Source of the DNA: Caldilineae bacterium
Lineage (GTDB): Bacteria; Chloroflexota; Anaerolineae; DTLA01
DNA: 64,000 nucleotides
Assembly: GCA_037446815.1 (NCBI GenBank)
Contig: JBBIHX010000003.1
Location: 291-64,290, forward strand
Direction: 5' to 3'
The notes under the pieces are model-generated. The model saw only the letters and a program-made list of their open reading frames with translations. It did not search any database and was not told the DNA's origin. The translations under genes were made by a program, and so were the position numbers. How positions within the stretch are numbered: the first letter of the stretch is position 1; each line of letters starts with the position of its first letter. Positions 36,167 to 51,475 of this stretch are shown here, in pieces.

Positions 36167-36195
36167 TTGACGGAAAATGAGACTAGGGTTATAAT
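36167..36195 (+). promoter_or_regulatory. Sigma70-type promoter (TTGACG-17 nt-TATAAT) of the signalling supercluster
   Basis: TTGACG at 36167-36172 and TATAAT at 36190-36195, 67 nt upstream of ATG 36262. Confidence 0.6.
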
Positions 36196-36261: not shown

Positions 36262-37074
36262 ATGGCCCTTAAGGGAAACCTGAAGGATTTCGGCGTTGCC
36301 CAACTGCTGAACCTGATTCACATCGCCCGCAAGACAGGTGCCCTCTCTGTCCGCAGCAATGGATTGTCGGCCACGCTGTATTTCCGCGAGGGGAAGTTGC
36401 TCGGCGCGTACCAGGATAGCCGCGACGACAGCCTTCTGGCCCTGCTCCAGCGCGCCGGCAAGATCACGCCCCAACAGGCGGAGAGCATCTTGTCCCGCGC
36501 CGAGACGCGCACCGACAAGGAGGTCGGCCTCCTTCTCCTCCACAACAACTACGTAACGCAGAAGGACATCCTCCAGGTGGTGCGGGCGGCGGCGCTGGAG
36601 ACCGTGTACGCCATCTTCGCCCTCACCGATGGCACCTTCCAGTTTGATCCCAATCGGATGCTCCCCCAAGAGAAAATCGGCGTTCCCATTGACCTGGACA
36701 ACGTCATCATGGAAGGGACGCGGCGGATGAAGGAATGGGAGCAGTTGCAGGCCGAGTTGCCCGACCTGGACGTGGCCCTGAAGTTCACCGACAGGCCTGG
36801 GACTTCCCTGAAGAACATCAGCCTGAGCGTGGAAGAGTGGCGGGTCATCTCCTTCATCAGCCCGCGCAACACCATTCGCCAAATCGCCCAGTATATCGGC
36901 CTGAGCGAGTTCCAGATTCGCAAAATCGTGTACGGTCTCCTGACGGCGGGCTTGGTGGAACTGGTGCGGCCCGAGGGCGCGCTGCCCCCTGGCCTACCGG
37001 GTCTTCCGCCGTCGCCAGCGGTCAAGCGGGGGGTGATCTTGCGCTTGATTGACAAAATTCGCCGCATCAGCTGA
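36262..37074 (+). CDS. DUF4388-domain protein (MglA-associated regulatory partner type)
   Basis: The N-terminal MALKGNLKDFGVAQLLNLIHIARKTGALSV...YFREGKLLGAY is the DUF4388 signature by eye. The Pro/Gly-rich C-terminal tail begins 18 nt upstream of the GTPase gene. Confidence 0.7.
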   Translation: MALKGNLKDFGVAQLLNLIHIARKTGALSVRSNGLSATLYFREGKLLGAYQDSRDDSLLALLQRAGKITPQQAESILSRAETRTDKEVGLLLLHNNYVTQKDILQVVRAAALETVYAIFALTDGTFQFDPNRMLPQEKIGVPIDLDNVIMEGTRRMKEWEQLQAELPDLDVALKFTDRPGTSLKNISLSVEEWRVISFISPRNTIRQIAQYIGLSEFQIRKIVYGLLTAGLVELVRPEGALPPGLPGLPPSPAVKRGVILRLIDKIRRIS

Positions 37075-37091: not shown

Positions 37092-37628
37092 ATGCAAGCG
37101 GTCAAAATGGTTATCACGGGCCCATTCAACGCGGGCAAGACGGAGTTCATCAAGACCATCAGCGAGATTGACGTTGTCTCCACCGAGCGGCGAATTTCCG
37201 ATGAGACGCGCGCCACAAAGGAAGAGACCACCGTTGCCATGGACTTCGGGCGCATCACCATTGACGAAGACCTGGTGCTTTTCCTGTTCGGCACGCCCGG
37301 GCAGAAGCGGTTTGATTTCATGTGGGAAATCCTATCCGAGGGGATGCTGGGGTTTATCGTGCTGGTGGACTCGGTGCGGCCCGAGACCTTCCGCGAGGCG
37401 CGCCGCATCTTGGATGTGTTCCGAACCTACGCGCCCGCGCCCTACGTGGTGGCGGCCAACAAGCAGGACCTGCCCGATGCCTGGAGCCCCCAGGACATCC
37501 GCATCGCCCTGCGCGTGGATCCAGGCGTCAAGGTCGTCCCGTGCGTTTCAACCGACAAAGAGAGCGTGAAGAGCGTCCTGCTGGAACTCCTGTACACGAT
37601 TCTGGAGAACTCCAAGGACGAGGAATAG
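37092..37628 (+). CDS. MglA-like small Ras-superfamily GTPase (178 aa)
   Basis: P-loop GPFNAGKT. The switch-II motif FGTPGQ is the TxxGQ variant (Thr replaces the canonical Asp), which is diagnostic of the MglA group. NKxD is present as ANKQD. GGAGG RBS. Confidence 0.8.
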   Translation: MQAVKMVITGPFNAGKTEFIKTISEIDVVSTERRISDETRATKEETTVAMDFGRITIDEDLVLFLFGTPGQKRFDFMWEILSEGMLGFIVLVDSVRPETFREARRILDVFRTYAPAPYVVAANKQDLPDAWSPQDIRIALRVDPGVKVVPCVSTDKESVKSVLLELLYTILENSKDEE

Positions 37629-37643: not shown

Positions 37644-38435
37644 TTGGGTTCCATCGTAACACGCCAAGGGATCGTGCATTATGAGACCCAAGGGAGCGGC
37701 CCGCCGGTCATCCTGTTGCATGGGTGGCTTGGCTCCTGGGGGTATTGGCTGGATACGATGGAGGCACTATCCGACGCCTTTCGCACGTATGCGCTGGACT
37801 TTTGGGGGTTTGGGGAGTCGGGCAAGCCGCGCAGCGGCTACGAAGTGGACGACTTCGTGAACCTGGTGGATCAGTTCATGGACCGCCTGGGGATACCGGC
37901 GGCTCCCGTGGTCGGGCACTCCATGGGCGGCACGGTCGCCCTGAAGTTGGCCATGGAGCGCCCCGAGCGGGTTACCAAGGTGGCGGTTGTCGGCTCGCCT
38001 ATCAACGGGCGTTCGTTGAGTTTGCCGTTGCGTTTGGCCGGGCGCAAGCCGGTGGCGTATCTCGTGTGGCACATGCCCGGGATGCTGCGATGGGGCATTC
38101 GGACCTTCTCGCCGCGGCTGGCCCACGACTGGCGCAAGTGGTACGACATGATTATGCACGACCTGTCGCGCACGACGCTGGAGGCCTTTCTGTCCAGCAT
38201 TCGGTCGCTGCGCCGGACGGATCTAACGCCCAGGCTGGGCGAGGTGCAGGTGCCGGTGTTGGGGTTCTACGGCCAGCGGGACCTCATCGTGGACCCGCGG
38301 CAGGGGGGCGTGCTGCTGCGCGGCGCGCCCAAGGCCGATTTGGCCAGGCTGGAGCACTGCGGCCACTTTCCGATGCTGGACGATCCGGCCCTGTTCAACA
38401 GCCGGTTGAGGCAGTTCTTGACCACATCGCATTGA
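37644..38435 (+). CDS. Alpha/beta-hydrolase fold protein (paralog A)
   Basis: HGWLGSW oxyanion region and a GHSMGG nucleophile elbow. Paralogous by eye to 51908..52687 (same N-terminal IVHYETQGSG/IIHYETLGRG, LHGWLGSW.YW). Confidence 0.75.
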   Translation: MGSIVTRQGIVHYETQGSGPPVILLHGWLGSWGYWLDTMEALSDAFRTYALDFWGFGESGKPRSGYEVDDFVNLVDQFMDRLGIPAAPVVGHSMGGTVALKLAMERPERVTKVAVVGSPINGRSLSLPLRLAGRKPVAYLVWHMPGMLRWGIRTFSPRLAHDWRKWYDMIMHDLSRTTLEAFLSSIRSLRRTDLTPRLGEVQVPVLGFYGQRDLIVDPRQGGVLLRGAPKADLARLEHCGHFPMLDDPALFNSRLRQFLTTSH

Positions 38436-38483: not shown

Positions 38484-39206
38484 ATGGACGAGGAAAAAGA
38501 CATTCACCAGGAGCAGCACGGTCAGGAGGAGCAGCACGCTCACGAAGAGCCGCATGAGCACGGCGAGCATGAGCACGGCGAAGTGGCCCAGCCTCGGTAC
38601 TACTACGGCAACAAGATGGCACGCATCTACCTGCTGGCGCTGGAAGATGTGCTGGGCAAGAACGGCGTGAACGCTTTGCTCAACCTGGCGAAACTGAAGC
38701 ATCTCATCAACAACTACCCGCCCAACAACTTTGAGCGCGAGTTCCCGTTTGAGGACTTCGCGGCGCTGAACCAGGCGCTGGACGACGTGTACGGGCCGCG
38801 CGGCGGCCGGGGCCTGGGCACGCGAGGGGGCCGCGCCACGTTCAAGTACGTGCTCAAAGAATACGGCGCCATGTTGGGCATCAGCGACCTGGCCATGCGC
38901 CTCATGCCGCTGGGCATGAAACTGCGGCTGGGCCTCGGCGTGATGGCTGAGACCTTCAACCGCTCCAGCGACCAGGTGGTGCGCCTGGAAGAGGACAACG
39001 AGCACTTCTACTATCACATCGTTCGCTGCCCGGTGTGCTGGGGCCGCAAGTCGCAGACGCCGATATGCTACGTGGCGCTGGGCCTGTTGCAGGAGAGCCT
39101 CGCGTGGGTAACTGGCGGCAAGAACATGTCCGTTGTGGAGACGACCTGCATCGCCAAGGGCGACCCCACGTGCTGTTTCGTGATTGATAAGAAACCGTTG
39201 GATTAG
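38484..39206 (+). CDS. V4R-domain protein with a His-rich acidic N-terminal tail
   Basis: The C-terminal half carries the V4R cysteine pattern (CPVCWG...C...GDPTCCF). The N-terminal region HQEQHGQEEQHAHEEPHEHGEHEHGE is a candidate metal-binding tail. Confidence 0.7.
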   Translation: MDEEKDIHQEQHGQEEQHAHEEPHEHGEHEHGEVAQPRYYYGNKMARIYLLALEDVLGKNGVNALLNLAKLKHLINNYPPNNFEREFPFEDFAALNQALDDVYGPRGGRGLGTRGGRATFKYVLKEYGAMLGISDLAMRLMPLGMKLRLGLGVMAETFNRSSDQVVRLEEDNEHFYYHIVRCPVCWGRKSQTPICYVALGLLQESLAWVTGGKNMSVVETTCIAKGDPTCCFVIDKKPLD

Positions 39207-39409
39207 GCGGGGGAGAGCACGGGCAGATTGCGGCGCGGGATTCGGGGCCGCCCGCCGACGCGGCTCCGAGCCGTCCCGCTAGAAGCGCATCCTAGGCCGG
39301 GCGAGGTACCCCCCAGCCCGCCGGTCGGCCGAGGGCTTCCCGTGCCTCGCCCGGACGTGCGGGGAGGGGCGCGCAACACGGTGGGCGATCCGGAGGGTGC
39401 CAGAGGGCC

Positions 39410-40660
39410 ATGATACGGATAGTCATTCGGGATCGGACCAAGATACCCCCGTTCAACGAGCCTGCGCGCGATTTGCGCGTGCTCAATAAGCCCCTGTGGC
39501 TGCACCAGCGCGACGTGCTGGCGCGGTACTGCCTCACCGAGGTGGAAGTGGAAGTCGGCGACCCGCTGCCGCCCATCCGTGAAGAATGCCTGGTCTATCG
39601 CGACAACCTCTTCTTTGACGAGGACTTCATCCACGAGTTCTTGCGGTTGGCCAGGGCGCGGCGAAGGCCCTGTCAGGTGGCCTTCTCCCCCGACGACAAG
39701 GCCATCGTCGTTCACGCCCTCCCGCTCCAGGACAACATCCGCCTGCAAGGCGACGTGTATGTGGCCGACCTGTGGTACTACCCCAGCGGCCCCACCGACG
39801 AACCGCCGGAGCCGGTGGTGGTGGACACTATGGCGCAGGAAATCGGGTACTACCACATCCCCACCTACATGGCCTCGGAGAAGGGGGAACTGGTCTTCTG
39901 GGTTCCCTTGCGGCCGTTCCTGGCGATAGAGAACTGGGTGCATGTGTTCATGGCCAATTCGCCCTTTGGCATCTTCAGCATGGGGGCGAAGATGGAGCAC
40001 GAGGTGGCGCGCTTTTCCAAGGCGGCCCGCGTGCTGTTGCGTTCGCTGCTGGAGCGGCGGCAGTTCCTGTCGTCGTCGCGGATGATCCGCGTGGGGCGCA
40101 ACGTGCAGATAGACCCCACGGCCATCATCCAGGGGCCGGCCATCATCGGCGACAACACCACCATCGGCCCGGGCGCGGTGGTTACCAACTCCATCATCGG
40201 CAGCAACGTCAACGTCATGCAGGGATGCCAGGTGATGCTCAGCGTCGTCAGCGATGGGTGCTATCTCCCCTTCCGCGCGGCGCTGTTCATGACGACGCTC
40301 ATGGAGAATTCCATGGTGGCGCAGAATGCCACGCTGCAACTGTGCGTCGTCGGGCGGCATTCGTTTGTGGGGGCCAACACGGTCTTCACGGATTTCAATC
40401 TGCTGGGCAAGCCGCTGCGCACTATGCACAAAGGCCAGCCGCAGCCTGTGGGCTTGCCCGTTCTGGGCGGGTGCGTCGGACACAACTGTCGCATCGGCGC
40501 GGGGATGGTCATCTATCCGGCGCGCACCATTGAGTCGGATACGGTTCTCATCCGCGCCGAGGGCCGCGGCGTCATTTCGGACAACGTGCTGTTTGAGCAA
40601 AGCGACCACGTGCGGTTAGGAGAGGAGAGCCTGCATCCGCAGAAGTACACAAGGGGGTAG
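39410..40660 (+). CDS. Left-handed beta-helix (hexapeptide-repeat) protein with a unique N-terminal domain
   Basis: The C-terminal half has imperfect hexapeptide repeats (IIGDNTTIGPGAVVTNSIIGSNVNVMQGCQV..., VVGRHSFVGANTVF, CVGHNCRIGAGMVI). The N-terminal about 200 aa lacks a GxGTRL nucleotidyltransferase motif. The stop is 1 nt before the next start. Confidence 0.6.
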   Translation: MIRIVIRDRTKIPPFNEPARDLRVLNKPLWLHQRDVLARYCLTEVEVEVGDPLPPIREECLVYRDNLFFDEDFIHEFLRLARARRRPCQVAFSPDDKAIVVHALPLQDNIRLQGDVYVADLWYYPSGPTDEPPEPVVVDTMAQEIGYYHIPTYMASEKGELVFWVPLRPFLAIENWVHVFMANSPFGIFSMGAKMEHEVARFSKAARVLLRSLLERRQFLSSSRMIRVGRNVQIDPTAIIQGPAIIGDNTTIGPGAVVTNSIIGSNVNVMQGCQVMLSVVSDGCYLPFRAALFMTTLMENSMVAQNATLQLCVVGRHSFVGANTVFTDFNLLGKPLRTMHKGQPQPVGLPVLGGCVGHNCRIGAGMVIYPARTIESDTVLIRAEGRGVISDNVLFEQSDHVRLGEESLHPQKYTRG

Positions 40661-40661
40661 T

Positions 40662-41714
40662 ATGGAACGTTTCGGCTTTATCCTACACCCTTTGGATGTG
40701 CGGAGAGATGTGGCAAAGCGCTTCGCGGTTCTCAGCATCTTGCCGCTACGGTGGCTGGATTTCCTGTCGGGATATTTCCCGCCGGTGTACCTGTCGCACG
40801 TTACTGGCATTCGGTCTGCACTGGGTGATGAGGCGGAGGGTTGGCTTGTGGCCTGCCCGCTCACGCCCAGGGCGATGACCCGGTTCCCGCTGAAGCGCGT
40901 CTATCGGCAGATCATCCGCGCCGGGCAACTGGCCGAGCGGCTCGGCGCGCGCATCATTGGGCTGGGCGCGCTGACCTCAGCCGTCGGCGACGCGGGGGAG
41001 ACGGTGGCGCAGGGCCTGAAGGCAGCGGTAACGACGGGCAACAGTTACACGGTGGGGGTTACCTGCGGCGCCGTGCGCGCCATTGCCCGCACCCTGGGCA
41101 AGCCGCTGGAGGAGTTGCGCGTGGCGGTGCTGGGCGGGACGGGGTCCATCGGCAGCGCGTGTGCGCGCCTGCTGTGCCGCAACGTGGGAGAGGTGCGCAT
41201 CGTGGGCCGCGACCCTGCAGCGGTGGAACGCCTGGTGCGTTCGCTGGAACCGGTGGCGTATCGGGAGGTATCCGGCACGACCGACCTGATGGCCCTACGG
41301 GACGCGGACGTCATCGTCAGCGCTACCAACTCGGCAGGGCCACTCATCCGTCCGGAGCACTTGCGCCCGGGCGTCGCGGTGTACGACCTGGCGTTGCCTC
41401 CCGACGTGTCGGCGGCGGTGCGCCAAATGGGGCTGGATGTGCAGGTCTATTCCGGCGGCGATGTCCTGGTGCCGGGGAAGCCGAACTTCGGGTTTGACTT
41501 CGGGCTACCGCCCGGCCATGCCTACGCCTGCATGGCCGAGACGATAGCCTTGGCCTTGGAGGGTCGGTACGAGAACTACACGCTGGGGCGAAGTATCGCC
41601 CCAGAGCAGGTGCTGAAGATTTGCGTCATCGCCGAGCGGCATGGGTTCCGCCCCGCGCCTTTGCGCGCCAGGGGCAGGACCGTGGAAGTGCCCTCGTGCG
41701 TGGAAGTGGTATAA
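40662..41714 (+). CDS. Acyl-ACP-reductase (AAR)-like NAD(P)-binding protein
   Basis: By-eye alignment to cyanobacterial AAR throughout: FGFILHPL~[16 protein letters not shown]~[32 protein letters not shown]~[36 protein letters not shown]~[20 protein letters not shown]~VRHGFQP. The catalytic Cys of the AAR 'EHC' motif is not obvious here. Confidence 0.65.
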   Translation: [350 protein letters not shown]

Positions 41715-41762
41715 TAGAAGCCGGCAGGTGCGCTTGTACGACAGGTGTTAGGGAGGATAGAT

Positions 41763-42709: not shown

Positions 42710-45700
42710 ATGAACGTTTCCAAGGGAAGATTGAGAGCGCAGCAGGTTGTCGCCTGGCTGTACTGGTTCGGATGGCTGTACGTGCTGATTTCCTCCCTCA
42801 CCAATCAAGGACGGGTCGGCCTGTGGGTCTTGGCTCTCCTGGCCGCGCAGTGGCTGGTGCTCCGCGTGGGCGCGGTTCGGGCTTTTCGCGCTCGTCATGC
42901 TCTGCTTGGACTTCTTGCCGTTGAGGTGCCATTTTCCATCGCGGTCTTCTATTTGACGGGCGGGCGTACCAGCCCCGCGTCCATCCTGGCCTACTTCCTC
43001 GTCGGCCTGGGCGCAGCGCACTTGCCGCTCGCGGCGCTGGCGGTGTACATCCTCGGCATCACCGTGGCGTTCCTGCTGCCTCTCGTGCCCCCGCTGTGGC
43101 CCGCGGGCGAACCCATCCGCTGGCAATACCTGGTAACGGGGCTGTTCAGTTACTACGCGCTGGGGTACATCGTCCGATACCTGGTGCAGGCCGAGGAGCG
43201 GGAGCGGGCCGAGCACCTGGAAAGCCAGGAGGTGCTGGCCGAGTCGCGCAGGCGCGTGAACGAACTCACCGCCCTACAGCGCATCAGCCGCCAACTCGGC
43301 AGCACGCTGGAACTGGACAAACTGCTGCCCATGATTGTGGAAGAGACGGTGGCCGCGACGCCGGCAACTCATGGCGCGCTGCTGCTGGTGGATGAGAACA
43401 CGGGCAAGTTGGCGCTGCGCGCGTCCTACGGGTACACGCCCGACCAGATCATGGCCTACAAGGAGTTGGACTTTGAGTCCACCAAGACCATCGTCGGGCG
43501 GGTGCGGGAGACGGGGCAACCGGCGCTCATTGCCGATGTGTCCCAGGACGCGGACTACTTCGCCCTCGTGCCGGAGACACGCTCCGAGGTGGCGGTGCCC
43601 ATCCGAATGGGCAACGTGGTGGTGGGCGTGCTGAACCTGGAGGCACGCACGCCCAATGCGTTCGCCGATGCCGATGTCCATTTCTTGGAGGCCATCGCCG
43701 ACCAGGCGGCGCTGGCGCTGGCCAACGCGCAATTGTACACGGCGACCGACAGGACCCTGGCGCGGCGCGTGGAAGAACTCGGCGCGATGAGCGAGATCAC
43801 GCGCGAGTTGGCCAGCACGCTGGACCTGCACCGCGTCCTGGACTTGCTCATCGGTCGCGCCATCCAGGCTACCGGCGCGACCTCGGCCCTGGCGGGCCTG
43901 TACGACCCCGAGACCGATACCCTGGAACTTCTCGCGCACCGGAATTATCCCACGCTCATCACCGCCGAGGGCACCGTGGAGCGGCCCGCGACGGGCGGCA
44001 TCACCCAGCGCGTGGTGCGAACCGGCAGGCCTGCCCTCGTGCCCGATGTTACCAAAGACCCCGACTACGTGCCGGCCCTGCCCGACACGCGCTCGCAGTT
44101 GACGGTGCCCATCCGCTACGAGAACCAGGTGCTGGGCGTGCTGAACTTGGAGAGCAACCGTCCGGCAGCGTTCACCCACGAGAACCTGGCGTTTGTGGAG
44201 AACCTGGCAAACCAGGCGGCGGTCGCGGTCCGAAACGCCCGCCTGTACGACCAGGAACTCCGCCGATTGCAGGAAATCTCGCTGCTGAACGAGGTGGGCC
44301 AGGCGATTTCGGGCAGCCTGGATTTGGAGTCCACCCTACAGACCATTCTGGAGAGCGCGCGCCGCCTGCTGGACTACTACGTGGCCGAAGTGAACCTGTG
44401 GGACGAAGACCAGGGCGTGATGGTAACGTGCGCGGCGGCGGGCGAATCGGGCTACCTGACCCAGGTGGGCACGACCTACACGCCGGAGCAGGGATACACC
44501 GGCTGGATCACCCGCAACCAGAAGCCTCTGTTCATCCCCGACACGCGGGCGCGGGCCGATGTGCAGCCGCGCGTGAGCCTGGAAGACACGCCCTACCGTT
44601 CCTACATGGGCGTGCCGCTGGTGAAGGGGCAGAAATTGGTGGGCACGCTGGAGATGGCCGCGGACCGCCCCAATGCGTTCTCGCAGCAGGACCTGCGCCT
44701 GCTCCAGGCCATCGCGGGCCAGGCCGCCGTCGCCATTGAGAACGCGCGCCTGTACGAGGAGACCCAGTCCAGGGTGGACGAGATGGCCGGCCTGTTCCAG
44801 ATTGCCGGCATCGTTACCTCCACGCTGGACATGGACCAGATGCTGCAGGAGACGCTGCGCAAGACCGCGGAGTTGCTCAAGGCCGAGAAGATGGCGCTCC
44901 TCCTGTACAACGAGACGACAGAGCGGCTGGAAGCGCGGGCCAGCGCCGTGGTGGGACTCCCGCCCGAGGAAGCGGAGATGCTCTCTATTGATGCACAGAC
45001 GCCCGATTTCGCCTACGGCGTCTTTCGCACGGGCCGACCGTTCCGTTCGTCGGATGCGCCCCACGACAAGCGCATCATCCCCGCCTACCGCCCGCTGATT
45101 GAGAAGTACGGGTTCCGTACGGTGCTGTCGGTGCCGCTGCGGACGCAAGACGTCATTCTGGGCGAACTGCACGCGGGGAACAAGCGCGATGGGGCCTTCT
45201 CCACCGAGGATGAGCGGCTTCTGGCGACGGTGGCCGCCCAACTGGCGGCGGGTATCCAGAATCTGCGGCTGTACCAGCGCACCGACGAGCAACTGCGGCA
45301 CCAGATTGACCAGATGACGGCCCTCCAGCGCATCACGCGCGAATTGAACGCCACGCTGGAACTGGAGCGCATCCTGGAGGTCGTGATCACCGAGGCCATT
45401 CGCGCCACCCGCGCCTCGCATGGCAACATCGCCCTGCTGGATGTGGAGAGTGGCACGTTCCACATCGCGGCGTACAAGGGGTACTCGGCGGAAGAAGAGG
45501 CTATCCTCCAGAAGATGACCCTGGGCAGCGGGAACAGCATCGCCGAGGATGCCATCCGCGCCGCCAAGTCCATCATCGTGGCCGACGCCCGCAAGGAGAC
45601 CCGCCCCGTCTGCATTCGCAAGGGCACCCTGTCCGCCGTGGCCGTGCCCATCCTGTACGAGGGGGCGGTCGCCGGCGTCATCAGCCTGCGGGCGATGGAG

Positions 45701-48700
45701 GTGCAGGCCTTTGACGAGGACACGGTGAGGTTCCTGGAGGCGCTGGCCAACCAGGCGGGCGTGGCCATCGGCAACGCATGGCGGTACCAGGAGCAGGTGC
45801 GCCTGGGGGCCAGCCTCAGCCGCCGCGCCGAGCAACTGCGCAGCCTCTTGGAGATCGGCAACGCGCTCCGCATGAACCTGTCGCTGGAAGAGGTGCTGGA
45901 CCAGATTGTCTACGCCATCCCCGAAACGACGGGGTTCAACCTGGCCCTGTTGAGCGTCGTGGAGGGTGATCCGCCGTACCTGCGGCGCGTGGCGGCGGCA
46001 GGGCTGCCCATCGCCGTCTTTGAGGAGATGCGCCGCGTGCGGCAGCCTTTGGAGCGGTTCACCCGCATCATGCGCGACGAGTACCGCATCAGCCAGTCCT
46101 ATTTCTTCCCGCACCAGAAGGCGCACGAGTGGCAAGAGGGGTTGCACGTATACACGCCGCCGGCGCCCGATGAGGAGTGGGAGCAAGGCCGCTGGCACCC
46201 CGAAGACATGCTCATCGTCCCGCTCCATTCGTCCTCCGGCGAGATTCTGGGCCTGCTGAGCGTGGATGAGCCGCGCGATGGTCGGGTGCCCACCCGCGCC
46301 GTGGTGGAGGCGCTGGAGATCTTCGCCAACCAGGCGGCCACGGCCATTGAGAACGCGCAACTGTACGAGAAGCAGTTGGCCCAGAGCCAACTGATGGCGC
46401 GCCGCGCCGAGCAACTCAGCAACCTGCTCAACTTCGGCAACGCCCTGAAGGCCGAGATGAGCCTGGAGCAGGTGTGCCGCGAGATCGCCGATGCCGCACA
46501 CACGCAGATGGGCTATCGCCTCGTGGCGTTGAACCTGATTGATGGCGACGATCCGTCGCTGGTGCGTGTGGTGGCGACGGCGGGGGTGGACGCGGAGACC
46601 ACAGCCGCGCCCTTCCCGCGTTCCGCGCTGGAGAGCCTGCTGGACGAGCGGTATCGTATCAGCCAGTCGTACCTTATCACGGGGGACGGCAAGGGCGCGC
46701 TGGAGGGGAGCGGGGCGCCGGTGTACGTGCCCGATTTGGGCGAGCGCGGGCCCGACGAGTGGCAACCCACCGACGCCCTCATCGTCCCGCTGACCGGCAG
46801 CAAGGGGCACATCGGCTACCTGTCGCTGGATGACCCCGTGAGCCGCCGCCGACCAGAGCCCGAAGACATCGCCGCGCTGGAGGTGTTCGCGAACCAGGCG
46901 GCCATCGGCATTGAGAACGCCATGCTGTACGAGAACGTTATCTCGCGCATGCGCGAAATCTCGGCCATGTACGACGTGAGCCGAGGGTTGGTGTCCACCC
47001 TGGACCCGGAGGAGATGCTGGAGGACGTGTTGAGCGCGCTCCGACAGTCGGCCGGGTACGACAACTGCGCGTTCCTTCTGCTGGACCCGGTTGCCGACGA
47101 CCTGGTGGTGCGCGCCGCCGTGGGGTACATGGAAGACATCAAGGGCCTGCGCATCCAGGTGGGGCGCGAGGGCATCACCGGCTGGGTCGCCGAGAACAAG
47201 CAGCCCCTCGTGGTGCCCGACGTTACGCAGGACGCCCGATACATCCAGAAGGACTCGCAGACCCGCTCGGAGATCGCCGTGCCCATGATGGTGGGCAATC
47301 GGCTCATCGGCGTGCTGGATGCCCAGAGCAGCGAATTGGACGCCTTCGGCGAGCGGGACTTGCGCATCCTGTCGGCGGTGGCAGCGCAGACGGCCGTGGC
47401 CACTGAGAACAGCCGCCTGTATGAGGAGACGCGCCGCCGCGCCACGCAGTTGGAGGCCACCAGCGAGGTGGGGCGACGCATCGCGTCCATCCTGGGCCTG
47501 GATGAACTCCTCTCCGAAGTGGTGGAACTGGTGCACGAGACCTTCAACTACGACCACGTGCACGTGTTCCTGATTGACCCGGATACGCAAGAGGCGGTGT
47601 ACCGCGCGGGCAACGGCTCGGTGGGCCGCGCCATTCGCGAAGAGGGGCTTCGGCTGAAAGTGGGCCAGGAAGGGATGATTGGCCATGCCGCCAGCACCCG
47701 CCAGCCCCTCATCGCCAACGACGTTGCCAAAGACCCCTTCTACGTGCCGCACCCGCTGCTGGCCGACACGCGCTCGGAATGCACCGTCCCGCTGGTCATC
47801 GGAGACCGCGTCATCGGCGTTCTGGACGTGCAGAGCCACGAGTTGGACGCTTTTGGCGACGACGACCTGTTCCTGCTCCAGACCTTCGGCGACCAGTTGG
47901 CCGTGGCCATTGAGAACGCGCGCCTGTTTGAGGAGTCGGAGCGGCGGATCCGTTCCCTGGCGGCGCTGAACCGCATGGGCCAGACAATCAGCTCCACGCT
48001 GGACCTGACGGCGCTCCTGGACGAGGCCTATCGCCAGATTTCGCAGGTCATTGACGCCTCCAATTTCTACATCGCCTTCTACGACGAGGAGCGCGACGAG
48101 GTATCCTTCCCGCTGGCCATTGAGGAGGGTGAGCGCGTAACGTGGCAAAGCCGCCGCGGGACGCGCAGCCTGACCGAGCATATCATCCGCACGCGGCAGC
48201 CGCTATTCCTGCCGGAGAACGTGGTGGAGGCGGCCACCGAAATCCTGGGCAACCCGCCGGTGGGCCGGGCCGCCCTGTCGTGGATGGGCGTGCCGATGAT
48301 TGTGGGCGAGAAGGTCATCGGCGTCATCGCCGTGCAGAGTTATGCCAAGGCTCGCGCCTATACGGAAGAGGACCTCAACGTGCTGCAAACCATCGCGGCG
48401 CAAGTGGCCACGGCGGTGCAGAACGCCCGCCTGTTCCAGGAGACGCGCCAGAGCGCCGAGGAGATGCGCCTGCTGTACGACCTGGGTGTGGCCCTCAGCG
48501 AGACGCTGGAACTGGACCGCGTGCTGACGCTCATCGCCGAGAGCGCGCTGCAACTGACCCACACGCAAATCGCCACGCTGTACATCAAGGGCCAGACGGG
48601 CGATGAACTGACCTTCAAGGTTGTCTCGGACCCGCCGGAGCTGGCCCAGGGGATTGAAGTACACAAGCCGCGCGCCAAGGGCCTGACGGCGCAGATTCTC

Positions 48701-51475
48701 AAATCGGGCAAGCCGCTTATCCTGGACGACATTGCGCAGGACGAGCGCGTCAGCCCGGTTATCAAAGAGATGGGCATCCAGTCCATGATGGGCGTGCCGG
48801 TGCAGGTGGAGGGGCAGACCATCGGGGTGCTGTTTGCAGGCTCTAGGGAGTCCCACCACTTCACCGATAGGGACGTGTCGCTGGTCAACTTCCTGGTGAA
48901 CCAGGCGTCGCGCGCCATCCGCAACGCCCAGTTGTACGAGGAAATCACGCGCCTGAACCTGGAACTGGAAGAGCGCGTGGAGCAGCGCACGCGCGAACTG
49001 GCCAAGGCCAACGAGGAACTCACCATTGAGCGCGACCGCACCGAGGCGCTGTACCGCATCGCGCGCGAGTTGAGCCAGACGCTGGACCTGAACCGCGTGA
49101 TGAGCCGCGCCCTGCAATTGCTGAAAGAGTCCATCGGCATGAAGCGGGGCTCCATCCTCCTGCTGGATCAGCAGACCGGCAAACTGGTGCACCGCGCGTC
49201 GCTGACGCGGGGCACGCTGGAGCAGGGCGAGGCATCGCGGGCGTTCAGCGTGGGCGTTGGGCTGGCCGGGTGGGTGCTCCAGCACCGCCAGGCGGCCATC
49301 GTCCCCGACGTAACGAAGGACGAGCGGTGGCTCGCGACGGCGGGCGAGGAGACCGTGCGGTCGGCGCTGTCGGTGCCGCTACAGGCGGGCGAGGACATCC
49401 TTGGCGTGCTGACCCTGGCCGACCCGCGCCCCGACTACTTCAGCGAGGCCCACCTGAAGATGGTAACCGCCGCGGCCACACAGATCGCCACCGCCATCGG
49501 CAACGCCGAACTGTATCGGCTGATTCAGGAGCAAGCGGACCGCCTGGGCGACATGCTGCGCATGCAGCAGACCGAAGCGTCCAAGACCCGCGCCATCCTG
49601 GAGGGCATCGCCGACGGCGTGGTGGTTACCGACACCGACGGGCGCATCATCCTGTTCAACGACGCCGCCGAGCGCATCCTAGGCGTGCCGCGCAATGTCG
49701 TCATGAACGAGAACGTGCATGCCCTGCCGGCTACCCTGTCGGCGGGGGCCGAGATGGCGGCGCGTGGCCTGGCCGCCGTGAGCCGCTGGGTCGGCGTCGC
49801 GACCCGTCAGCGGCCCCAGATGGAAGAGCGCTTCGCCGTGGGCAACAAGGTGGCCAGCGTGCGCGTGGCCCCCGTGATGATGGGCGACGAACTGCTGGGC
49901 ACGGTGGCCCTGTTCCGCGACATCTCCAAGGAGGTGGAGGCCGAGCGCGTCAAGAACGAGTTCATCTCCACCGTGTCCCACGAGTTGCGCACGCCCATGA
50001 CCTCCATCAAGGGTTACACCGACCTGCTGTTCATGCAGGCCGCGGGGCCCATCACCGACGCCCAGCGCAAGTTCCTGACCGTCATCAAGTCCAACGCCGA
50101 CCGCCTGGCCACGCTGGTAAATGACCTGTTGGACATCTCCCGTATTGAGACCGGCCGCATCCGCCTTGACCGCCAGCCTACCGACGCCGCCAAGGTGATC
50201 CAGGACGTGGTAACGGCGCTCAGCAAGCAGGCGGACGAGAAGCAACTGACGGTTACCACCCGGATCAAGTCGCCGCTGCCGCCGGTGTACGCCGACCGCG
50301 ACCGCCTGACCCAGATTCTGACCAACCTGGTGGACAACGCGTGCCGGTATACGCCTGCGGGCGGGAAGATCACCGTGTCGGCGCGGCGCGTTTCCGACAA
50401 GGTGCAGATTGACGTAACCGACACCGGCATCGGCATCTCGCCCGAAGACCAGAAGAAGGTCTTTGACCGCTTCTATCGGGCCGACCATCCCGTCGTCCAA
50501 GAGACCGGCGGCACCGGCCTGGGCCTGGCCATCGTCAAGTCGTTCGTGGAGATGCACGGTGGCACCATCTGGCTGAAGAGCGAGTTGGGCAAGGGTTCAA
50601 CGTTCAGTTTCACGATGCCCATCGCCGTGTTTGACCAGCCGCTCCCGCCGCGCGAGGAAGTAACGGAGGAGGCCGAACCCATCGGCGCGGGCAAGCGCAT
50701 CCTGGTGGTGGAAGACGAGCCGGACATCGCCAACCTGGTGGCCCATCACCTGCGCGAGGAAGGGTATGAGGTGAGCACGTGCGGGCGCGGCGATGAGGTC
50801 ATGGACATCGCCCTGCGCGAAAAGCCGCACCTCATCACCCTGGACATCCGCCTGCCGGGCAAGGACGGGTTTGAGGTGCTCGGCGAGTTGAAGGCCCACC
50901 CGGAAACGTCGGAAATTCCCGTCGTCATCCTGTCCATCGTGCCCGACCCCGACCGAGCCTACCGATTGGGCGCGGTGGACTACCTGGGCAAGCCGGTGGA
51001 CGAGAAGCGCCTTGTCAACACGATACACTCCATCCTGTTCGCCCACGACCTGGTGCTCATCTGCGACGACAATGAGGACACGCAGAAACTGCTGCGCGAG
51101 GTCCTGGAGCGCAACGGATTCGTGGCCCGGACTGTGTCGGACGGACGCCAGGTGCTGGCCGTCGCTGAGAAGGAGCGCCCCGGCCTCATCCTGCTGGACC
51201 TCAAGATGCCCGGCCTGGACGGGTATTCGGTGTTGGAGCAACTGAAGCAGAATCCGAACACCGCCGACATCCCGGTGATTGTGATGACGGCCAGCATTGC
51301 CGACGACAAGGTGAAGCGCGACCGCGCGCTGGCGCTTGGAGCCGCCAAGTTCATGACCAAGCCCTTCTCCATCCCCGATTTGGTGGAGGAGGTGCGCAAG
51401 GCGCTGGAGGCCAGGGCCAAGGCCAACGGCAAGGCGCAACGGGCCGACCGCGAGGCCGCCGCGAGCGCCGAGTAA
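42710..51475 (+). CDS. Giant membrane-anchored hybrid sensor histidine kinase (2921 aa): about 5 TM - 12 tandem GAF - PAS - HisKA - HATPase_c - REC - REC
   Basis: N-terminal hydrophobic region of about 170 aa. Twelve GAF units, each ending in an (E/Q)NA(R/Q)L(Y/F) helix and sharing a VPDVT(K/Q)D...TRSE.(A/T)VP...(V/I)(L/I)GVL core. PAS (ILEGIADGVVVTDTDGRIILFN), H-box (STVSHELRTPMTSIKGY), HATPase (LVDNACRYT...GTGLGLAIVK), then two REC domains (KRILVVEDEPDI...; LVLICDDNEDTQ...). Confidence 0.85.
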   Translation: MNVSKGRLRAQQVVAWLYWFGWLYVLISSLTNQGRVGLWVLALLAAQWLVLRVGAVRAFRARHALLGLLAVEVPFSIAVFYLTGGRTSPASILAYFLVGLGAAHLPLAALAVYILGITVAFLLPLVPPLWPAGEPIRWQYLVTGLFSYYALGYIVRYLVQAEERERAEHLESQEVLAESRRRVNELTALQRISRQLGSTLELDKLLPMIVEETVAATPATHGALLLVDENTGKLALRASYGYTPDQIMAYKELDFESTKTIVGRVRETGQPALIADVSQDADYFALVPETRSEVAVPIRMGNVVVGVLNLEARTPNAFADADVHFLEAIADQAALALANAQLYTATDRTLARRVEELGAMSEITRELASTLDLHRVLDLLIGRAIQATGATSALAGLYDPETDTLELLAHRNYPTLITAEGTVERPATGGITQRVVRTGRPALVPDVTKDPDYVPALPDTRSQLTVPIRYENQVLGVLNLESNRPAAFTHENLAFVENLANQAAVAVRNARLYDQELRRLQEISLLNEVGQAISGSLDLESTLQTILESARRLLDYYVAEVNLWDEDQGVMVTCAAAGESGYLTQVGTTYTPEQGYTGWITRNQKPLFIPDTRARADVQPRVSLEDTPYRSYMGVPLVKGQKLVGTLEMAADRPNAFSQQDLRLLQAIAGQAAVAIENARLYEETQSRVDEMAGLFQIAGIVTSTLDMDQMLQETLRKTAELLKAEKMALLLYNETTERLEARASAVVGLPPEEAEMLSIDAQTPDFAYGVFRTGRPFRSSDAPHDKRIIPAYRPLIEKYGFRTVLSVPLRTQDVILGELHAGNKRDGAFSTEDERLLATVAAQLAAGIQNLRLYQRTDEQLRHQIDQMTALQRITRELNATLELERILEVVITEAIRATRASHGNIALLDVESGTFHIAAYKGYSAEEEAILQKMTLGSGNSIAEDAIRAAKSIIVADARKETRPVCIRKGTLSAVAVPILYEGAVAGVISLRAMEVQAFDEDTVRFLEALANQAGVAIGNAWRYQEQVRLGASLSRRAEQLRSLLEIGNALRMNLSLEEVLDQIVYAIPETTGFNLALLSVVEGDPPYLRRVAAAGLPIAVFEEMRRVRQPLERFTRIMRDEYRISQSYFFPHQKAHEWQEGLHVYTPPAPDEEWEQGRWHPEDMLIVPLHSSSGEILGLLSVDEPRDGRVPTRAVVEALEIFANQAATAIENAQLYEKQLAQSQLMARRAEQLSNLLNFGNALKAEMSLEQVCREIADAAHTQMGYRLVALNLIDGDDPSLVRVVATAGVDAETTAAPFPRSALESLLDERYRISQSYLITGDGKGALEGSGAPVYVPDLGERGPDEWQPTDALIVPLTGSKGHIGYLSLDDPVSRRRPEPEDIAALEVFANQAAIGIENAMLYENVISRMREISAMYDVSRGLVSTLDPEEMLEDVLSALRQSAGYDNCAFLLLDPVADDLVVRAAVGYMEDIKGLRIQVGREGITGWVAENKQPLVVPDVTQDARYIQKDSQTRSEIAVPMMVGNRLIGVLDAQSSELDAFGERDLRILSAVAAQTAVATENSRLYEETRRRATQLEATSEVGRRIASILGLDELLSEVVELVHETFNYDHVHVFLIDPDTQEAVYRAGNGSVGRAIREEGLRLKVGQEGMIGHAASTRQPLIANDVAKDPFYVPHPLLADTRSECTVPLVIGDRVIGVLDVQSHELDAFGDDDLFLLQTFGDQLAVAIENARLFEESERRIRSLAALNRMGQTISSTLDLTALLDEAYRQISQVIDASNFYIAFYDEERDEVSFPLAIEEGERVTWQSRRGTRSLTEHIIRTRQPLFLPENVVEAATEILGNPPVGRAALSWMGVPMIVGEKVIGVIAVQSYAKARAYTEEDLNVLQTIAAQVATAVQNARLFQETRQSAEEMRLLYDLGVALSETLELDRVLTLIAESALQLTHTQIATLYIKGQTGDELTFKVVSDPPELAQGIEVHKPRAKGLTAQILKSGKPLILDDIAQDERVSPVIKEMGIQSMMGVPVQVEGQTIGVLFAGSRESHHFTDRDVSLVNFLVNQASRAIRNAQLYEEITRLNLELEERVEQRTRELAKANEELTIERDRTEALYRIARELSQTLDLNRVMSRALQLLKESIGMKRGSILLLDQQTGKLVHRASLTRGTLEQGEASRAFSVGVGLAGWVLQHRQAAIVPDVTKDERWLATAGEETVRSALSVPLQAGEDILGVLTLADPRPDYFSEAHLKMVTAAATQIATAIGNAELYRLIQEQADRLGDMLRMQQTEASKTRAILEGIADGVVVTDTDGRIILFNDAAERILGVPRNVVMNENVHALPATLSAGAEMAARGLAAVSRWVGVATRQRPQMEERFAVGNKVASVRVAPVMMGDELLGTVALFRDISKEVEAERVKNEFISTVSHELRTPMTSIKGYTDLLFMQAAGPITDAQRKFLTVIKSNADRLATLVNDLLDISRIETGRIRLDRQPTDAAKVIQDVVTALSKQADEKQLTVTTRIKSPLPPVYADRDRLTQILTNLVDNACRYTPAGGKITVSARRVSDKVQIDVTDTGIGISPEDQKKVFDRFYRADHPVVQETGGTGLGLAIVKSFVEMHGGTIWLKSELGKGSTFSFTMPIAVFDQPLPPREEVTEEAEPIGAGKRILVVEDEPDIANLVAHHLREEGYEVSTCGRGDEVMDIALREKPHLITLDIRLPGKDGFEVLGELKAHPETSEIPVVILSIVPDPDRAYRLGAVDYLGKPVDEKRLVNTIHSILFAHDLVLICDDNEDTQKLLREVLERNGFVARTVSDGRQVLAVAEKERPGLILLDLKMPGLDGYSVLEQLKQNPNTADIPVIVMTASIADDKVKRDRALALGAAKFMTKPFSIPDLVEEVRKALEARAKANGKAQRADREAAASAE

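What the first reader, a model, noticed from the sequence alone, without database searches (positions are those of the whole stretch)
39410..41714. Acyl-ACP-reductase-like protein (cyanobacterial alkane-pathway family) translationally coupled to an LbH protein in a non-cyanobacterial signalling cluster
The 350-aa product aligns by eye along its whole length with cyanobacterial AAR, but the active-site Cys (EHC in AAR) is not evident (ours is ...[11 protein letters not shown]...). No ferritin-like aldehyde-deformylating oxygenase gene is present in the window. Its start is 1 nt after the stop of a hexapeptide-repeat (acyltransferase-like) protein. That hints at a two-enzyme lipid or acyl-thioester modification step, possibly producing a signal sensed by the adjacent GAF array.
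Basis: partly seen in the sequence, partly recalled or inferred. Interest (0 to 1): 0.6.

Follow-up and report, generated by a model that had tools for sequence, protein, structure and literature searches.

The report
AAR-like thioester reductase with LbH partner
A relative of the cyanobacterial fatty-aldehyde-making enzyme, with its catalytic cysteine intact, is paired with a GlmU-like hexapeptide-repeat protein inside a nine-gene signalling cluster conserved across Anaerolineae; it is not an alkane pathway and its product is unknown.

Summary
The two ORFs are real and sit as described: LbH protein at 39410-40660, a 1-nt spacer, then the AAR-like protein at 40662-41714.

The 350-aa protein is a full-length homologue of cyanobacterial AAR and is closer still to the thioester-reductase domain of PigE. 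Its predicted fold matches AAR.

AAR's catalytic residue is Cys294 in MFACFAE, not the "EHC" Cys271. It aligns with Cys290 (AYACMAE), which is invariant in close homologues and near-invariant across the superfamily. The GxxGxxG site is also intact.

No ADO homologue was found in the window or in 86 related loci.

The partner has the two-domain fold of GlmU/ST0452, GMPPA/B and eIF2B gamma/epsilon, but lacks the GxGxR nucleotide loop.

The pair is adjacent in 72 of 78 species loci, with a median gap of 3 nt. It lies in a conserved Anaerolineae cluster: PATAN protein, small GTPase, α/β-hydrolase, V4R, LbH, AAR-like, response regulator with degenerate GGDEF, 12-GAF hybrid kinase, second α/β-hydrolase.

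Best reading: an active acyl-thioester-to-aldehyde reductase working with the LbH protein, functionally tied to this signalling cassette. Substrate and product are unknown.

The parts
36167..36195 (+). Sigma-70-like promoter candidate (TTGACG-17-TATAAT) upstream of the first cluster gene
   Evidence: 11 of 12 consensus positions matched. This is a consensus match only.
36262..37074 (+). PATAN / DUF4388 (PatA_N) protein, 270 aa
   Evidence: Pfam DUF4388 at 1.8e-30. Present upstream in 48 of 58 species loci with enough flank.
37092..37628 (+). Small Ras/Arf/MglA-like GTPase, 178 aa (GPFNAGKT, GTPGQ, NKQD)
   Evidence: Pfam ATP_bind_1 at 4e-18, Arf at 2e-9, Ras at 7e-7. Motifs read. It is 71-82% identical across Anaerolineae. 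Present in 48 of 58 loci.
37644..38435 (+). α/β-hydrolase 1 (ABH1), 263 aa, with a GHSMGG nucleophile elbow
   Evidence: Pfam Abhydrolase_1 at 1.9e-34. Present in 48 of 58 loci. In L087 a Roadblock/LC7 gene takes its place.
38484..39206 (+). V4R-domain protein, 240 aa, with cysteines at C182, C185, C195, C222, C230 and C231
   Evidence: Pfam V4R at 2.7e-8. Cysteines listed. Present in 37 of 58 loci.
39410..40660 (+). Two-domain partner protein, 416 aa. The N-terminal domain (about aa 1-215) has a nucleotidyltransferase-like fold but no GxGxR loop. The C-terminal part is a left-handed β-helix (about aa 224-400).
   Evidence: Pfam Hexapep at 3.5e-15 and LbH_EIF2B at 1.5e-12; no NTP_transferase hit. 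AlphaFold model has pLDDT above 90 in the N-domain. Foldseek best matches are ST0452 (5z0a, 2ggo) over the full length, then VTC1, GMPPA/B, CobY, eIF2B and RmlA. The sequence begins MIRIVIRDRTKIPPFNEPARDLRVLNKPLW.
40651..40657 (+). Shine-Dalgarno-like AAGGGGG inside the end of the LbH ORF, 4 nt before the AAR-like ATG
   Evidence: read directly from the sequence.
40662..41714 (+). AAR/PigE-N-type thioester reductase homologue, 350 aa
   Evidence: PDB 4ppm at 2.4e-36 and 6jzq at 1.1e-22. NCBIfam PigE N-terminal part at 189 bits and TIGR04058 at 82 bits. Model pLDDT 93. TM-score 0.80-0.83 to AAR.
41133..41153 (+). Codons for G158-G-T-G161-S-I-G164, the GxxGxxG NAD(P)H-binding motif
   Evidence: G158, G161 and G164 are invariant in A1 and at least 94% Gly across 152 superfamily members. 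AAR has GATGDIG at the same place.
41529..41531 (+). Codon of Cys290, the equivalent of AAR catalytic Cys294 and PigE Cys296
   Evidence: PMC9743570; PMC8341465.
41745..42674 (+). Response regulator (REC) with a degenerate GGDEF domain (GGGDF)
   Evidence: Pfam Response_reg at 5e-31; GGDEF at 8.6e-10, matching model positions 5-107 of 161 only. Motif read. Found directly downstream of the AAR-like gene in 68 of 77 loci.
42710..51475 (+). Hybrid histidine kinase, 2921 aa: hydrophobic N-terminus, about 12 GAF domains, PAS, HisKA, HATPase_c and 2 REC
   Evidence: Pfam. (hydrophobic segments at aa 36-132). Present in 60 of 69 loci.
51908..52687 (+). α/β-hydrolase 2 (ABH2), 259 aa, a paralogue of ABH1 (37% identity)
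   Evidence: Pfam. (blastp 6e-60 against ABH1). Found just after the kinase in 38 of 53 loci whose flank reaches that far.

Best explanation
The 350-aa protein is most likely an active NAD(P)H-dependent thioester reductase of the AAR/PigE-N superfamily (COG5322). NADPH is the likelier cofactor.

Inferred mechanism, by analogy with AAR:
1. An acyl group is transferred from a carrier thioester (acyl-ACP or acyl-CoA) to Cys290.
2. Hydride transfer from NAD(P)H releases an aldehyde.

It is not the first step of an alkane pathway. It forms a conserved two-gene unit with a GlmU/ST0452-like protein whose nucleotidyltransferase-like domain has lost the canonical NTP loop. The two are probably co-translated and may form a physical complex. 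The partner either acylates or otherwise processes a substrate linked to the reductase reaction, or it regulates or scaffolds the reductase.

The unit belongs to a nine-gene cluster conserved across Anaerolineae. The other seven genes are signalling proteins and two α/β-hydrolases. The most likely role of the pair is therefore to make or remodel an acyl-derived small molecule tied to that signalling pathway. The hydrolases may act in its turnover, and the V4R protein or the kinase may sense it.

What is shown: homology, fold, conserved catalytic residues, synteny and gene spacing.
What is inferred: activity, substrate class, complex formation and the signalling role.
For: Homology and fold:
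- Full-length homology to AAR and to the PigE N-domain.
- NCBIfam scores: PigE 189 bits, AAR 82 bits.
- The predicted fold matches AAR at TM 0.80-0.83, with the TAD domain next at 0.72. Every other Rossmann family is at 0.45 or below.

Catalytic residues:
- Cys290 aligns with AAR Cys294. It is invariant in 32 of 32 close homologues and is Cys in 136 of 143 ungapped sequences superfamily-wide.
- The TTG motif and GxxGxxG are conserved.
- Arg183 follows β2 as in AAR, and is Arg in 88 of 152 superfamily sequences.

Precedent: characterised relatives all reduce carrier thioesters to aldehydes. These are AAR (PMC9743570), PigE (PMC8341465), and KecF and TamH (PMC6498172, PMC10829540).

Lipid-like substrates: related clades carry fusions to SRPBCC/START lipid-binding domains and to class III aminotransferases.

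Partnership with the LbH protein:
- The LbH gene is directly upstream in 72 of 78 species loci. The gap is at most 7 nt in 51 of the 72, with a median of 3 nt.
- The check also holds in reverse: two LbH homologues looked up independently are each followed by an AAR-like gene.

Cluster conservation at 47-56% identity of the reductase.

No ADO was found.
Against: - No enzymology exists for any member of this clade.
- No ACP, acyl-activating enzyme or aldehyde-consuming enzyme (aminotransferase, ADO, alcohol dehydrogenase) is in the cluster. Substrate and fate of the product are therefore open.
- Catalytic residues of the LbH domain could not be assigned. The NT-like domain lacks the NTP loop, so the partner may be non-catalytic.
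- No LbH-AAR-like fusion protein was seen among the best 120 and best 150 hits listed.
- In 5 of the 77 loci with at least 1,500 nt upstream, the reductase has no LbH gene directly upstream. In four of these (L036, L040, L047, L058) no LbH match was found at all; L029 has only a partial LbH match.
- Thermoflexus has the pair without the response regulator or kinase. About 10 of 58 loci lack the PATAN/GTPase module nearby. The signalling link is therefore not obligatory in cis.
- Synteny does not show which protein, if any, senses a product.
Confidence: 0.55

Rival explanations
1. Housekeeping lipid metabolism. The reductase supplies fatty aldehyde for fatty alcohols, wax esters or ether-type lipids of the Anaerolineae envelope. 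The LbH protein acylates a lipid or sugar precursor. The neighbouring signalling genes only regulate membrane composition.
For: - AAR-type chemistry and conserved catalytic residues.
- START/SRPBCC lipid-binding fusions in related clades.
- The LbH domain resembles those of LpxA, LpxD and GlmU, enzymes that use acyl or acetyl thioesters.
- The family is very widespread in one class, with at least 591 species hits.
Against: - No lipid-synthesis genes (FAS, acyltransferases of the Pls type, alcohol-forming reductases, wax synthase) lie in the cluster or elsewhere in the window.
- The gene order with seven signalling or hydrolase genes is kept at about 50% protein identity. That is unusual for mere co-regulation.
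Confidence: 0.2
2. Regulatory, non-metabolic role. The NT-LbH protein is a pseudoenzyme, like GMPPA or eIF2B gamma/epsilon. Together with the reductase (acting as an NAD(P)H or acyl-thioester sensor) and the V4R/TRAPPC3-like protein, it acts as regulator or effector of the small GTPase or of the kinase, rather than making a diffusible product.
For: - The NT-like domain lacks GxGxR but is very strongly conserved, with many invariant polar residues.
- Fold matches include eIF2B gamma/epsilon and GMPPA, which are regulatory NT-LbH proteins.
- The cluster encodes a Ras/Arf-like GTPase with a PATAN protein. In one variant (L087) a Roadblock/LC7 protein is also present.
- V4R is the prokaryotic relative of TRAPPC3, a subunit of a Rab-GEF complex (PMC10933270).
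Against: - The reductase keeps every catalytic feature tested: the Cys, the TTG motif and the dinucleotide motif. That is expected of an enzyme rather than a pure sensor.
- The pair also occurs without the GTPase module nearby.
- No interaction data exist.
Confidence: 0.15
3. Ordinary cyanobacterial-type alkane pathway: AAR plus an ADO encoded elsewhere in the genome.
For: Full-length AAR homology with the catalytic Cys conserved. JGI annotates some homologues as 'fatty aldehyde-generating acyl-ACP reductase'.
Against: - TIGR04058 scores 82 bits against a cut-off of 450.
- The protein is closer to PigE than to AAR.
- No ADO in the window or in 86 loci.
- The lineage is Chloroflexota, not cyanobacteria.
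- The conserved partner is an LbH protein, not ADO.
Confidence: 0.03
4. A member of a different Rossmann family (shikimate dehydrogenase, glutamyl-tRNA reductase or ornithine cyclodeaminase), as public annotations suggest.
For: Pfam Shikimate_DH at 7.7e-12 and OCD_Mu_crystall at 4.8e-7. NCBI names homologues 'shikimate dehydrogenase'.
Against: - Those hits cover only the NAD(P)-binding domain, residues 115-263.
- Full-length sequence and fold match AAR, PigE and TAD only. AroE and GluTR reach TM 0.46 or lower.
Confidence: 0.02

Closest known systems
PigE N-terminal thioester-reductase domain (Serratia prodigiosin pathway); also the KecF and TamH reductase domains
   Same: - It is the best sequence match: NCBIfam NF053554 positions 1-347, 189 bits; PDB 4ppm, E 2.4e-36.
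- The Cys is conserved in the GCMAET / ACMAET motif, described as PigE Cys296 in PMC8341465.
- The predicted chemistry is the same: carrier thioester to aldehyde.
   Different: - PigE, KecF and TamH are fused to a class III aminotransferase and sit in secondary-metabolite clusters.
- This protein stands alone, has no aminotransferase nearby, and is paired with an NT-LbH protein in a signalling cluster.
Cyanobacterial acyl-ACP reductase (AAR, TIGR04058; PDB 6JZU, 6JZQ)
   Same: - Full-length homology at E 1e-22 and 26-28% identity.
- Three-domain fold at TM 0.80-0.83.
- The Cys294 equivalent, the TTG motif, GxxGxxG and an Arg after β2 are all present.
   Different: - It scores far below the equivalog cut-off: 82 against 450 bits.
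- It has no ADO partner.
- The lineage is Chloroflexota.
- Its conserved neighbour is an LbH protein.
Terminal amidation domain (TAD) of the NRPS CarI (PDB 9E4U)
   Same: Same superfamily fold (TM 0.72 normalised to the query, 0.61 to the target). It shares the invariant Cys and the Thr-Thr-Gly motif (bioRxiv 10.1101/2024.10.28.620694).
   Different: - TAD is a C-terminal domain of NRPS modules, forms a dimer and is NAD-specific through an Asp.
- This protein stands alone and has Gly-Arg at the position that usually selects NADPH.
ST0452 / archaeal GlmU, GMPPA/GMPPB and eIF2B gamma/epsilon (nucleotidyltransferase-like domain plus LbH) — comparison for the partner protein
   Same: The same two-domain architecture is predicted over the full length. 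Foldseek gives ST0452 at E 3e-6 and TM 0.43-0.52. LbH profile hits include LbH_EIF2B, GMPPB_C and Hexapep_GlmU.
   Different: - No Pfam NTP_transferase hit.
- The GxGxR NTP-binding loop is replaced by a conserved IRDxxKIPPFNEP.
- No catalytic His could be assigned in the LbH domain.
- Public annotation calls it 'multidrug transporter' or 'hypothetical protein'.
MglA/MglB-type and conservon-type (CvnA-D) small-GTPase signalling modules; V4R/TRAPPC3 — comparison for the cluster
   Same: - A small GTPase of the ATP_bind_1/Ras type is encoded next to accessory proteins and a sensor kinase.
- One variant (L087) carries Roadblock/LC7.
- V4R is related to TRAPPC3, which binds palmitate (PMC10933270).
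   Different: - A PATAN/DUF4388 protein is present instead of Roadblock plus DUF742.
- The cluster adds two α/β-hydrolases, the NT-LbH protein and an AAR-like reductase.
- I found no description of such a combination in the literature searched.

Membership tests
AAR/PigE-N/TAD superfamily (COG5322) | Full-length sequence homology covering the N-terminal, NAD(P)-binding and C-terminal domains | tested here: met
   4ppm over residues 3-345 at E 2.4e-36; 6jzq over residues 4-335 at E 1.1e-22.
AAR/PigE-N/TAD superfamily (COG5322) | AAR-type three-domain fold | tested here: met
   model pLDDT 93; TM 0.80-0.83 to 6jzu and 6jzy; TM 0.72 (query-normalised; 0.61 target-normalised) to TAD 9e4u; other families at 0.45 or below.
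AAR/PigE-N/TAD superfamily (COG5322) | Catalytic cysteine equivalent to AAR Cys294 | tested here: met
   Cys290 aligns with Cys294. It is invariant in A1. The column is Cys in 136 of 143 ungapped sequences.
AAR/PigE-N/TAD superfamily (COG5322) | GxxGxxG dinucleotide-binding motif and Thr-Thr-Gly motif | tested here: met
   G158, G161, G164 and T124, T125, G126 are invariant.
AAR/PigE-N/TAD superfamily (COG5322) | NAD(P)H-dependent thioester reduction to an aldehyde | not testable with these tools
   This needs enzymology. It is inferred from conserved residues and from characterised relatives (PMC9743570, PMC8341465).
Cyanobacterial AAR proper (TIGR04058 equivalog, alkane pathway) | Score above the curated equivalog cut-off | tested here: not met
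   81.9 bits against a cut-off of 449.7.
Cyanobacterial AAR proper (TIGR04058 equivalog, alkane pathway) | Partner aldehyde-deformylating oxygenase (ADO) | tested here: not met
Whole genomes were not searched.
PigE / KecF / TamH bifunctional reductase-aminotransferases | Class III aminotransferase domain, fused or adjacent | tested here: not met
   the protein is 350 aa with only the reductase part. No aminotransferase lies in the cluster. The NF053554 score is 189 against a cut-off of 850.
Shikimate dehydrogenase / glutamyl-tRNA reductase | Family-specific substrate-binding domain in addition to the Rossmann domain | tested here: not met
   Hits are limited to residues 125-263. Fold TM is 0.38 (query-normalised) to AroE and about 0.31 to GluTR.
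GlmU/ST0452-type bifunctional nucleotidyltransferase-acetyltransferase (partner protein) | N-terminal nucleotidyltransferase fold followed by a C-terminal LbH | tested here: met
   full-length Foldseek matches to 5z0a and 2ggo. N-domain matches to RmlA, CobY, KdsB and IspD.
GlmU/ST0452-type bifunctional nucleotidyltransferase-acetyltransferase (partner protein) | Gly-rich NTP-binding loop (L-x-x-G-x-G-x-R) and a Pfam NTP_transferase signature | tested here: not met
   The sequence reads MIRIVIRDRTKIPPFNEP. The consensus of 40 homologues is IIIRDxxKIPPFNEP. There is no NTP_transferase hit.
GlmU/ST0452-type bifunctional nucleotidyltransferase-acetyltransferase (partner protein) | Catalytic His/Asn set of the LbH acyltransferase site | tested here: inconclusive
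   Only weak local alignments to GlmU are available. The register is ambiguous: candidate positions are occupied by A322 or Q305/N306, and H358 is nearly invariant. The LbH part of the model has pLDDT 50-70.

The most novel reading that the evidence does not exclude
The LbH/AAR-like pair could be the enzymatic arm of a previously undescribed signalling cassette in Anaerolineae built around a small GTPase, with eukaryote-like components. The cassette has these parts:
- a PATAN protein and a Ras/Arf-like GTPase, with Roadblock in some variants;
- a V4R/TRAPPC3-like hydrophobic-ligand binder;
- two α/β-hydrolases;
- a response regulator with a degenerate GGDEF domain;
- a 12-GAF hybrid kinase.

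In this reading, an acyl-thioester-derived aldehyde or acylated metabolite is synthesised by the pair and destroyed by the hydrolases. It would act as an intracellular lipid second messenger or as a covalent acyl ligand of the V4R protein. The eIF2B-like NT-LbH protein might contact the GTPase directly.
Probability: 0.15. Interest if true: 0.8.

Novelty: new variant of a known kind. Interest (0 to 1): 0.5.

Why it matters
Every characterised member of the AAR superfamily feeds its aldehyde to a dedicated partner: ADO for alkanes, or an aminotransferase for pyrrole and alkaloid natural products. In TAD the domain ends an NRPS module.

This clade is present in hundreds of Anaerolineae species and has a different, equally conserved partner: a GlmU/eIF2B-like protein with a degenerate nucleotide site. 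It sits in a cluster dominated by signalling proteins. If the pair makes a lipid-derived signal, or regulates a bacterial Ras-like GTPase, that would be a new use of thioester-reductase chemistry. It would also give a first handle on a conserved but unstudied signalling system in an abundant filamentous lineage of wastewater sludge, sediments and hot springs.

There is a practical point as well. Public annotations for these genes are wrong and should be corrected. They include 'shikimate dehydrogenase', 'aminotransferase PigE', 'multidrug transporter' and 'fatty aldehyde-generating acyl-ACP reductase'.

Tried and rejected
- **Missing catalytic Cys.** Rejected.
- **Rosetta-stone fusions of the reductase with an LbH or NT domain.** None appeared in the listed hits. 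The roughly 700-aa fusions carry an unrelated N-domain of about 300 aa with no Pfam hit. hhalign gives probability 0.2% against the LbH N-domain.
- **Loci where the reductase lacks the LbH neighbour (L036, L040, L047, L058).** I listed the neighbouring ORFs and inspected their translations by eye, without a profile search. They look unrelated or housekeeping and give no alternative partner.
- **Riboswitch or other RNA element in the 203-nt gap before the LbH gene.** No Rfam hit.
- **Source organism.** The closest assembly is GCA_036172365.1 at 82-83% identity for the reductase.
- **Literature.** Searches for this clade or cluster found nothing specific.
- **Failed call.** One Pfam call failed on a wrong frame.


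Full report
**1. The observation**

The + strand carries a 416-aa ORF at 39410-40660 and a 350-aa ORF at 40662-41714. The first ends with TAG at 40658-40660. One base follows, then the ATG of the second. A Shine-Dalgarno-like AAGGGGG lies at 40651-40657. Both are real genes, with homologues ranging from 99-100% identity down to about 47%.

The 350-aa product aligns with S. elongatus AAR over residues 4-335 (6jzq, E 1.1e-22). [quoted passage not shown] NCBIfam gives the same order: the PigE model, positions 1-347 of 837, scores 189 bits, and TIGR04058 (AAR) scores 82 bits. Both are far below the equivalog cut-offs.

Pfam reports only the generic NAD(P) domain (Shikimate_DH, residues 143-263). 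That explains the public annotation 'shikimate dehydrogenase'.

An AlphaFold model built on 32 homologues has pLDDT 93. It matches AAR at TM 0.80-0.83, and the NRPS terminal amidation domain (TAD) at 0.72. Every other Rossmann family, including AroE, GluTR and amino-acid dehydrogenases, is at 0.45 or below.

**2. The catalytic cysteine**

That is a mis-assignment.
- In SeAAR the Cys of EHC is Cys271.
- The catalytic residue is Cys294, in MFAC294FAEAM. C294 is described as the active centre in PMC9743570.
- HMMER aligns this Cys with Cys290 of the window protein, in AYAC290MAETI. It is the same position as PigE Cys296 (PMC8341465).

Cys290 is invariant in 32 homologues at 48-84% identity. Across 152 diverse members of the superfamily, the column is Cys in 136 of 143 ungapped sequences. 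The Thr-Thr-Gly motif (T124-G126) and G158-x-x-G161-x-x-G164 are likewise conserved. Arg183 follows β2 as in AAR, which suggests NADPH, though that is an inference. Nothing points to a pseudoenzyme.

**3. Not an alkane pathway**

- The rest of the window encodes a nuo operon, an intein-containing RtcB, ProRS, cytochromes, ComEC and polysaccharide genes.
- Relatives are almost all Chloroflexota of the class Anaerolineae. At least 591 species representatives have a hit.

**4. The partner protein**

The 416-aa protein has hexapeptide repeats in its C-terminal half. Its best LbH profiles are those found C-terminal to sugar-nucleotidyltransferases: LbH_EIF2B, GMPPB_C, Hexapep_GlmU and LbH_GLGC.

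Its N-terminal 215 residues have no Pfam hit but are very strongly conserved. They are modelled with pLDDT above 90.

Foldseek puts the whole model on ST0452 (archaeal GlmU-like; 5z0a, 2ggo). It puts the N-domain on RmlA, VTC1, GMPPA/B, CobY, KdsB and eIF2B gamma/epsilon. The protein therefore has the nucleotidyltransferase-plus-LbH architecture.

The Gly-rich NTP loop (GxGxR) is replaced by a conserved IRDxxKIPPFNEP (sequence). Whether the LbH domain is a competent acyltransferase could not be decided. The register against GlmU is ambiguous, and that part of the model has pLDDT 50-70.

**5. Conservation of the pair and its surroundings**

I anchored on the reductase in 80 species-representative loci plus loci found through protein look-ups. 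Counts are for loci with enough flank:

| Gene | Position relative to the reductase | Loci |
|---|---|---|
| NT-LbH | directly upstream, same strand | 72 of 78 |
| Response regulator, degenerate GGDEF | directly downstream | 68 of 77 |
| Multi-GAF hybrid kinase | downstream | 60 of 69 |
| Second α/β-hydrolase (ABH2) | just after the kinase | 38 of 53 |
| PATAN/DUF4388 protein | upstream | 48 of 58 |
| Small GTPase | upstream | 48 of 58 |
| First α/β-hydrolase (ABH1) | upstream | 48 of 58 |
| V4R protein | upstream | 37 of 58 |

The gap between the LbH stop and the reductase start has a median of 3 nt. It is at most 7 nt in 51 of the 72 pairs.

The check also holds in reverse. Two LbH homologues looked up independently are each followed by the reductase.

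Variants are informative:
- Thermoflexus has PATAN, GTPase, hydrolase, LbH and reductase, but no V4R, response regulator or kinase.
- Some loci have LbH, reductase, response regulator and kinase without the GTPase module nearby.
- One locus, L087, has a Roadblock/LC7 gene where ABH1 usually sits.

The LbH-reductase pair is thus the constant core. It is shared by two signalling modules, and the window has the complete nine-gene version (36262-52687). A promoter-like site lies at 36167-36195.

In the window, the kinase has a hydrophobic N-terminus, about 12 GAF domains, PAS, HisKA, HATPase_c and two REC domains. The response regulator's GGDEF domain reads GGGDF and lacks the upstream metal-binding Asp. 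It is probably not a cyclase (inference).

**6. What the wider family says**

A search of 1.84 billion cluster representatives finds 3,071 relatives at E up to 1e-3, of which 577 are at E up to 1e-30. Architectures among the best 150 include:
- stand-alone proteins of about 350 aa;
- fusions to class III aminotransferases, as in the PigE, TamH and KecF type;
- recurrent fusions to SRPBCC/START lipid-binding domains;
- one PilZ-START-reductase protein;
- proteins of about 700 aa with an unknown N-domain.

Characterised members reduce carrier-bound thioesters to aldehydes (PMC9743570, PMC8341465, PMC6498172, PMC10829540). TAD keeps the Cys, but its chemistry is unresolved (bioRxiv 10.1101/2024.10.28.620694). 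The START fusions fit hydrophobic substrates or products.

**7. Mechanism proposed**

*Shown:* homology, fold, intact catalytic and cofactor motifs, conserved gene coupling, and conserved cluster.

*Inferred:* the protein takes an acyl group from acyl-ACP or acyl-CoA onto Cys290 and releases an aldehyde after hydride transfer from NAD(P)H. It does so in a complex with, or in sequence with, the NT-LbH protein. The product, or a derivative acylated by the LbH domain, is connected to the signalling proteins of the cluster. The two paralogous α/β-hydrolases are candidates for turnover. V4R is a candidate binder: it is a hydrophobic-ligand domain related to palmitate-binding TRAPPC3 (PMC10933270).

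My confidence by claim:

| Claim | Confidence |
|---|---|
| Active thioester reductase of the AAR/PigE type | about 0.8 |
| Not an alkane pathway | above 0.9 |
| Functional unit with the LbH protein | about 0.7 |
| Product serves the signalling cassette | about 0.3 |

**8. Rivals**

- Bulk-lipid metabolism regulated by the neighbours (0.2).
- A mainly regulatory, non-metabolic role of the pair towards the GTPase or kinase, by analogy with GMPPA and eIF2B gamma/epsilon (0.15).
- The alkane pathway (0.03).
- Another Rossmann family (0.02).

**9. Novelty and verdict**

The superfamily and its chemistry are known. The clade, its conserved NT-LbH partner and the nine-gene cluster were not found described in the literature searched.

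That lowers the surprise attached to the enzyme itself. The breadth and rigidity of the cluster are the interesting result.

I rate it a new variant of a known kind, with interest 0.5.

Noticed in passing
window 35745-35979 (- strand): A T-box leader lies upstream of the divergently transcribed prolyl-tRNA synthetase gene (34184-35611, - strand). It scores 66 bits at E 3.8e-13, below Rfam's gathering score of 93. A terminator-like hairpin sits at 35758-35736.
   Followed up: no
window 17592-20573 (- strand): The RtcB RNA ligase gene is interrupted by an intein. The product is 993 aa, with Intein_splicing matching residues 117-610.
   Followed up: no
window 41745-42674, motif at 42378-42392: The response regulator after the reductase has a degenerate GGDEF domain. 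It reads GGGDF in place of GG(D/E)EF, and VCG where the first metal-binding Asp is expected. It is probably not an active diguanylate cyclase. The gene is conserved directly downstream of the reductase in 68 of 77 loci.
   Followed up: partly
window 51908-52687: A second α/β-hydrolase, 37% identical to the one at 37644-38435, sits directly after the giant kinase. It is found at the same place in 38 of 53 related loci, which extends the conserved cluster to nine genes.
   Followed up: yes
L087 8872-9243: In one Anaerolineae relative, a Roadblock/LC7 (MglB-like) gene occupies the position of the first α/β-hydrolase, between the GTPase and V4R genes. This ties the upstream module to MglA/MglB-type GTPase regulation. 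The assembly shows split genes, possibly from frameshift errors.
   Followed up: no
proteins P0267, P0284, P0308, P0317, P0319, P0385, P0301: Relatives at 32-39% identity are fused to an N-terminal SRPBCC/START (Polyketide_cyc) lipid-binding domain. P0267 additionally has a PilZ (c-di-GMP-binding) domain.
   Followed up: partly
proteins P0248, P0251, P0253-P0257 and others: Many relatives are about 700 aa, with a conserved N-terminal domain of about 300 aa that has no Pfam hit. It shows no detectable similarity to any protein of this cluster. The shorter N-extension of P0274-type proteins is related to its C-terminal part (hhalign probability 95%).
   Followed up: partly
public annotations of homologues: Homologues of the reductase are named 'shikimate dehydrogenase', 'Aminotransferase PigE', 'predicted amino acid dehydrogenase' or 'fatty aldehyde-generating acyl-ACP reductase'. 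Homologues of the partner are named 'multidrug transporter' or 'carbonic anhydrase/acetyltransferase-like'. None of these names is supported by the analysis here.
   Followed up: yes
window 38484-39206: The V4R protein has six cysteines (CPVC at 182-185, then C195, C222 and CC at 230-231). This resembles the Cys4 Zn site described for PoxR V4R and archaeal TRAPPC3-like proteins (PMC10933270).
   Followed up: no
window 691-14335 and 26735-28282: NADH:quinone oxidoreductase (nuo) genes fill the first quarter of the window: fused 30K/49K, 51K, NuoG-like, NuoH and three antiporter-like subunits. A multihaem cytochrome c gene lies at 26735-28282.
   Followed up: no
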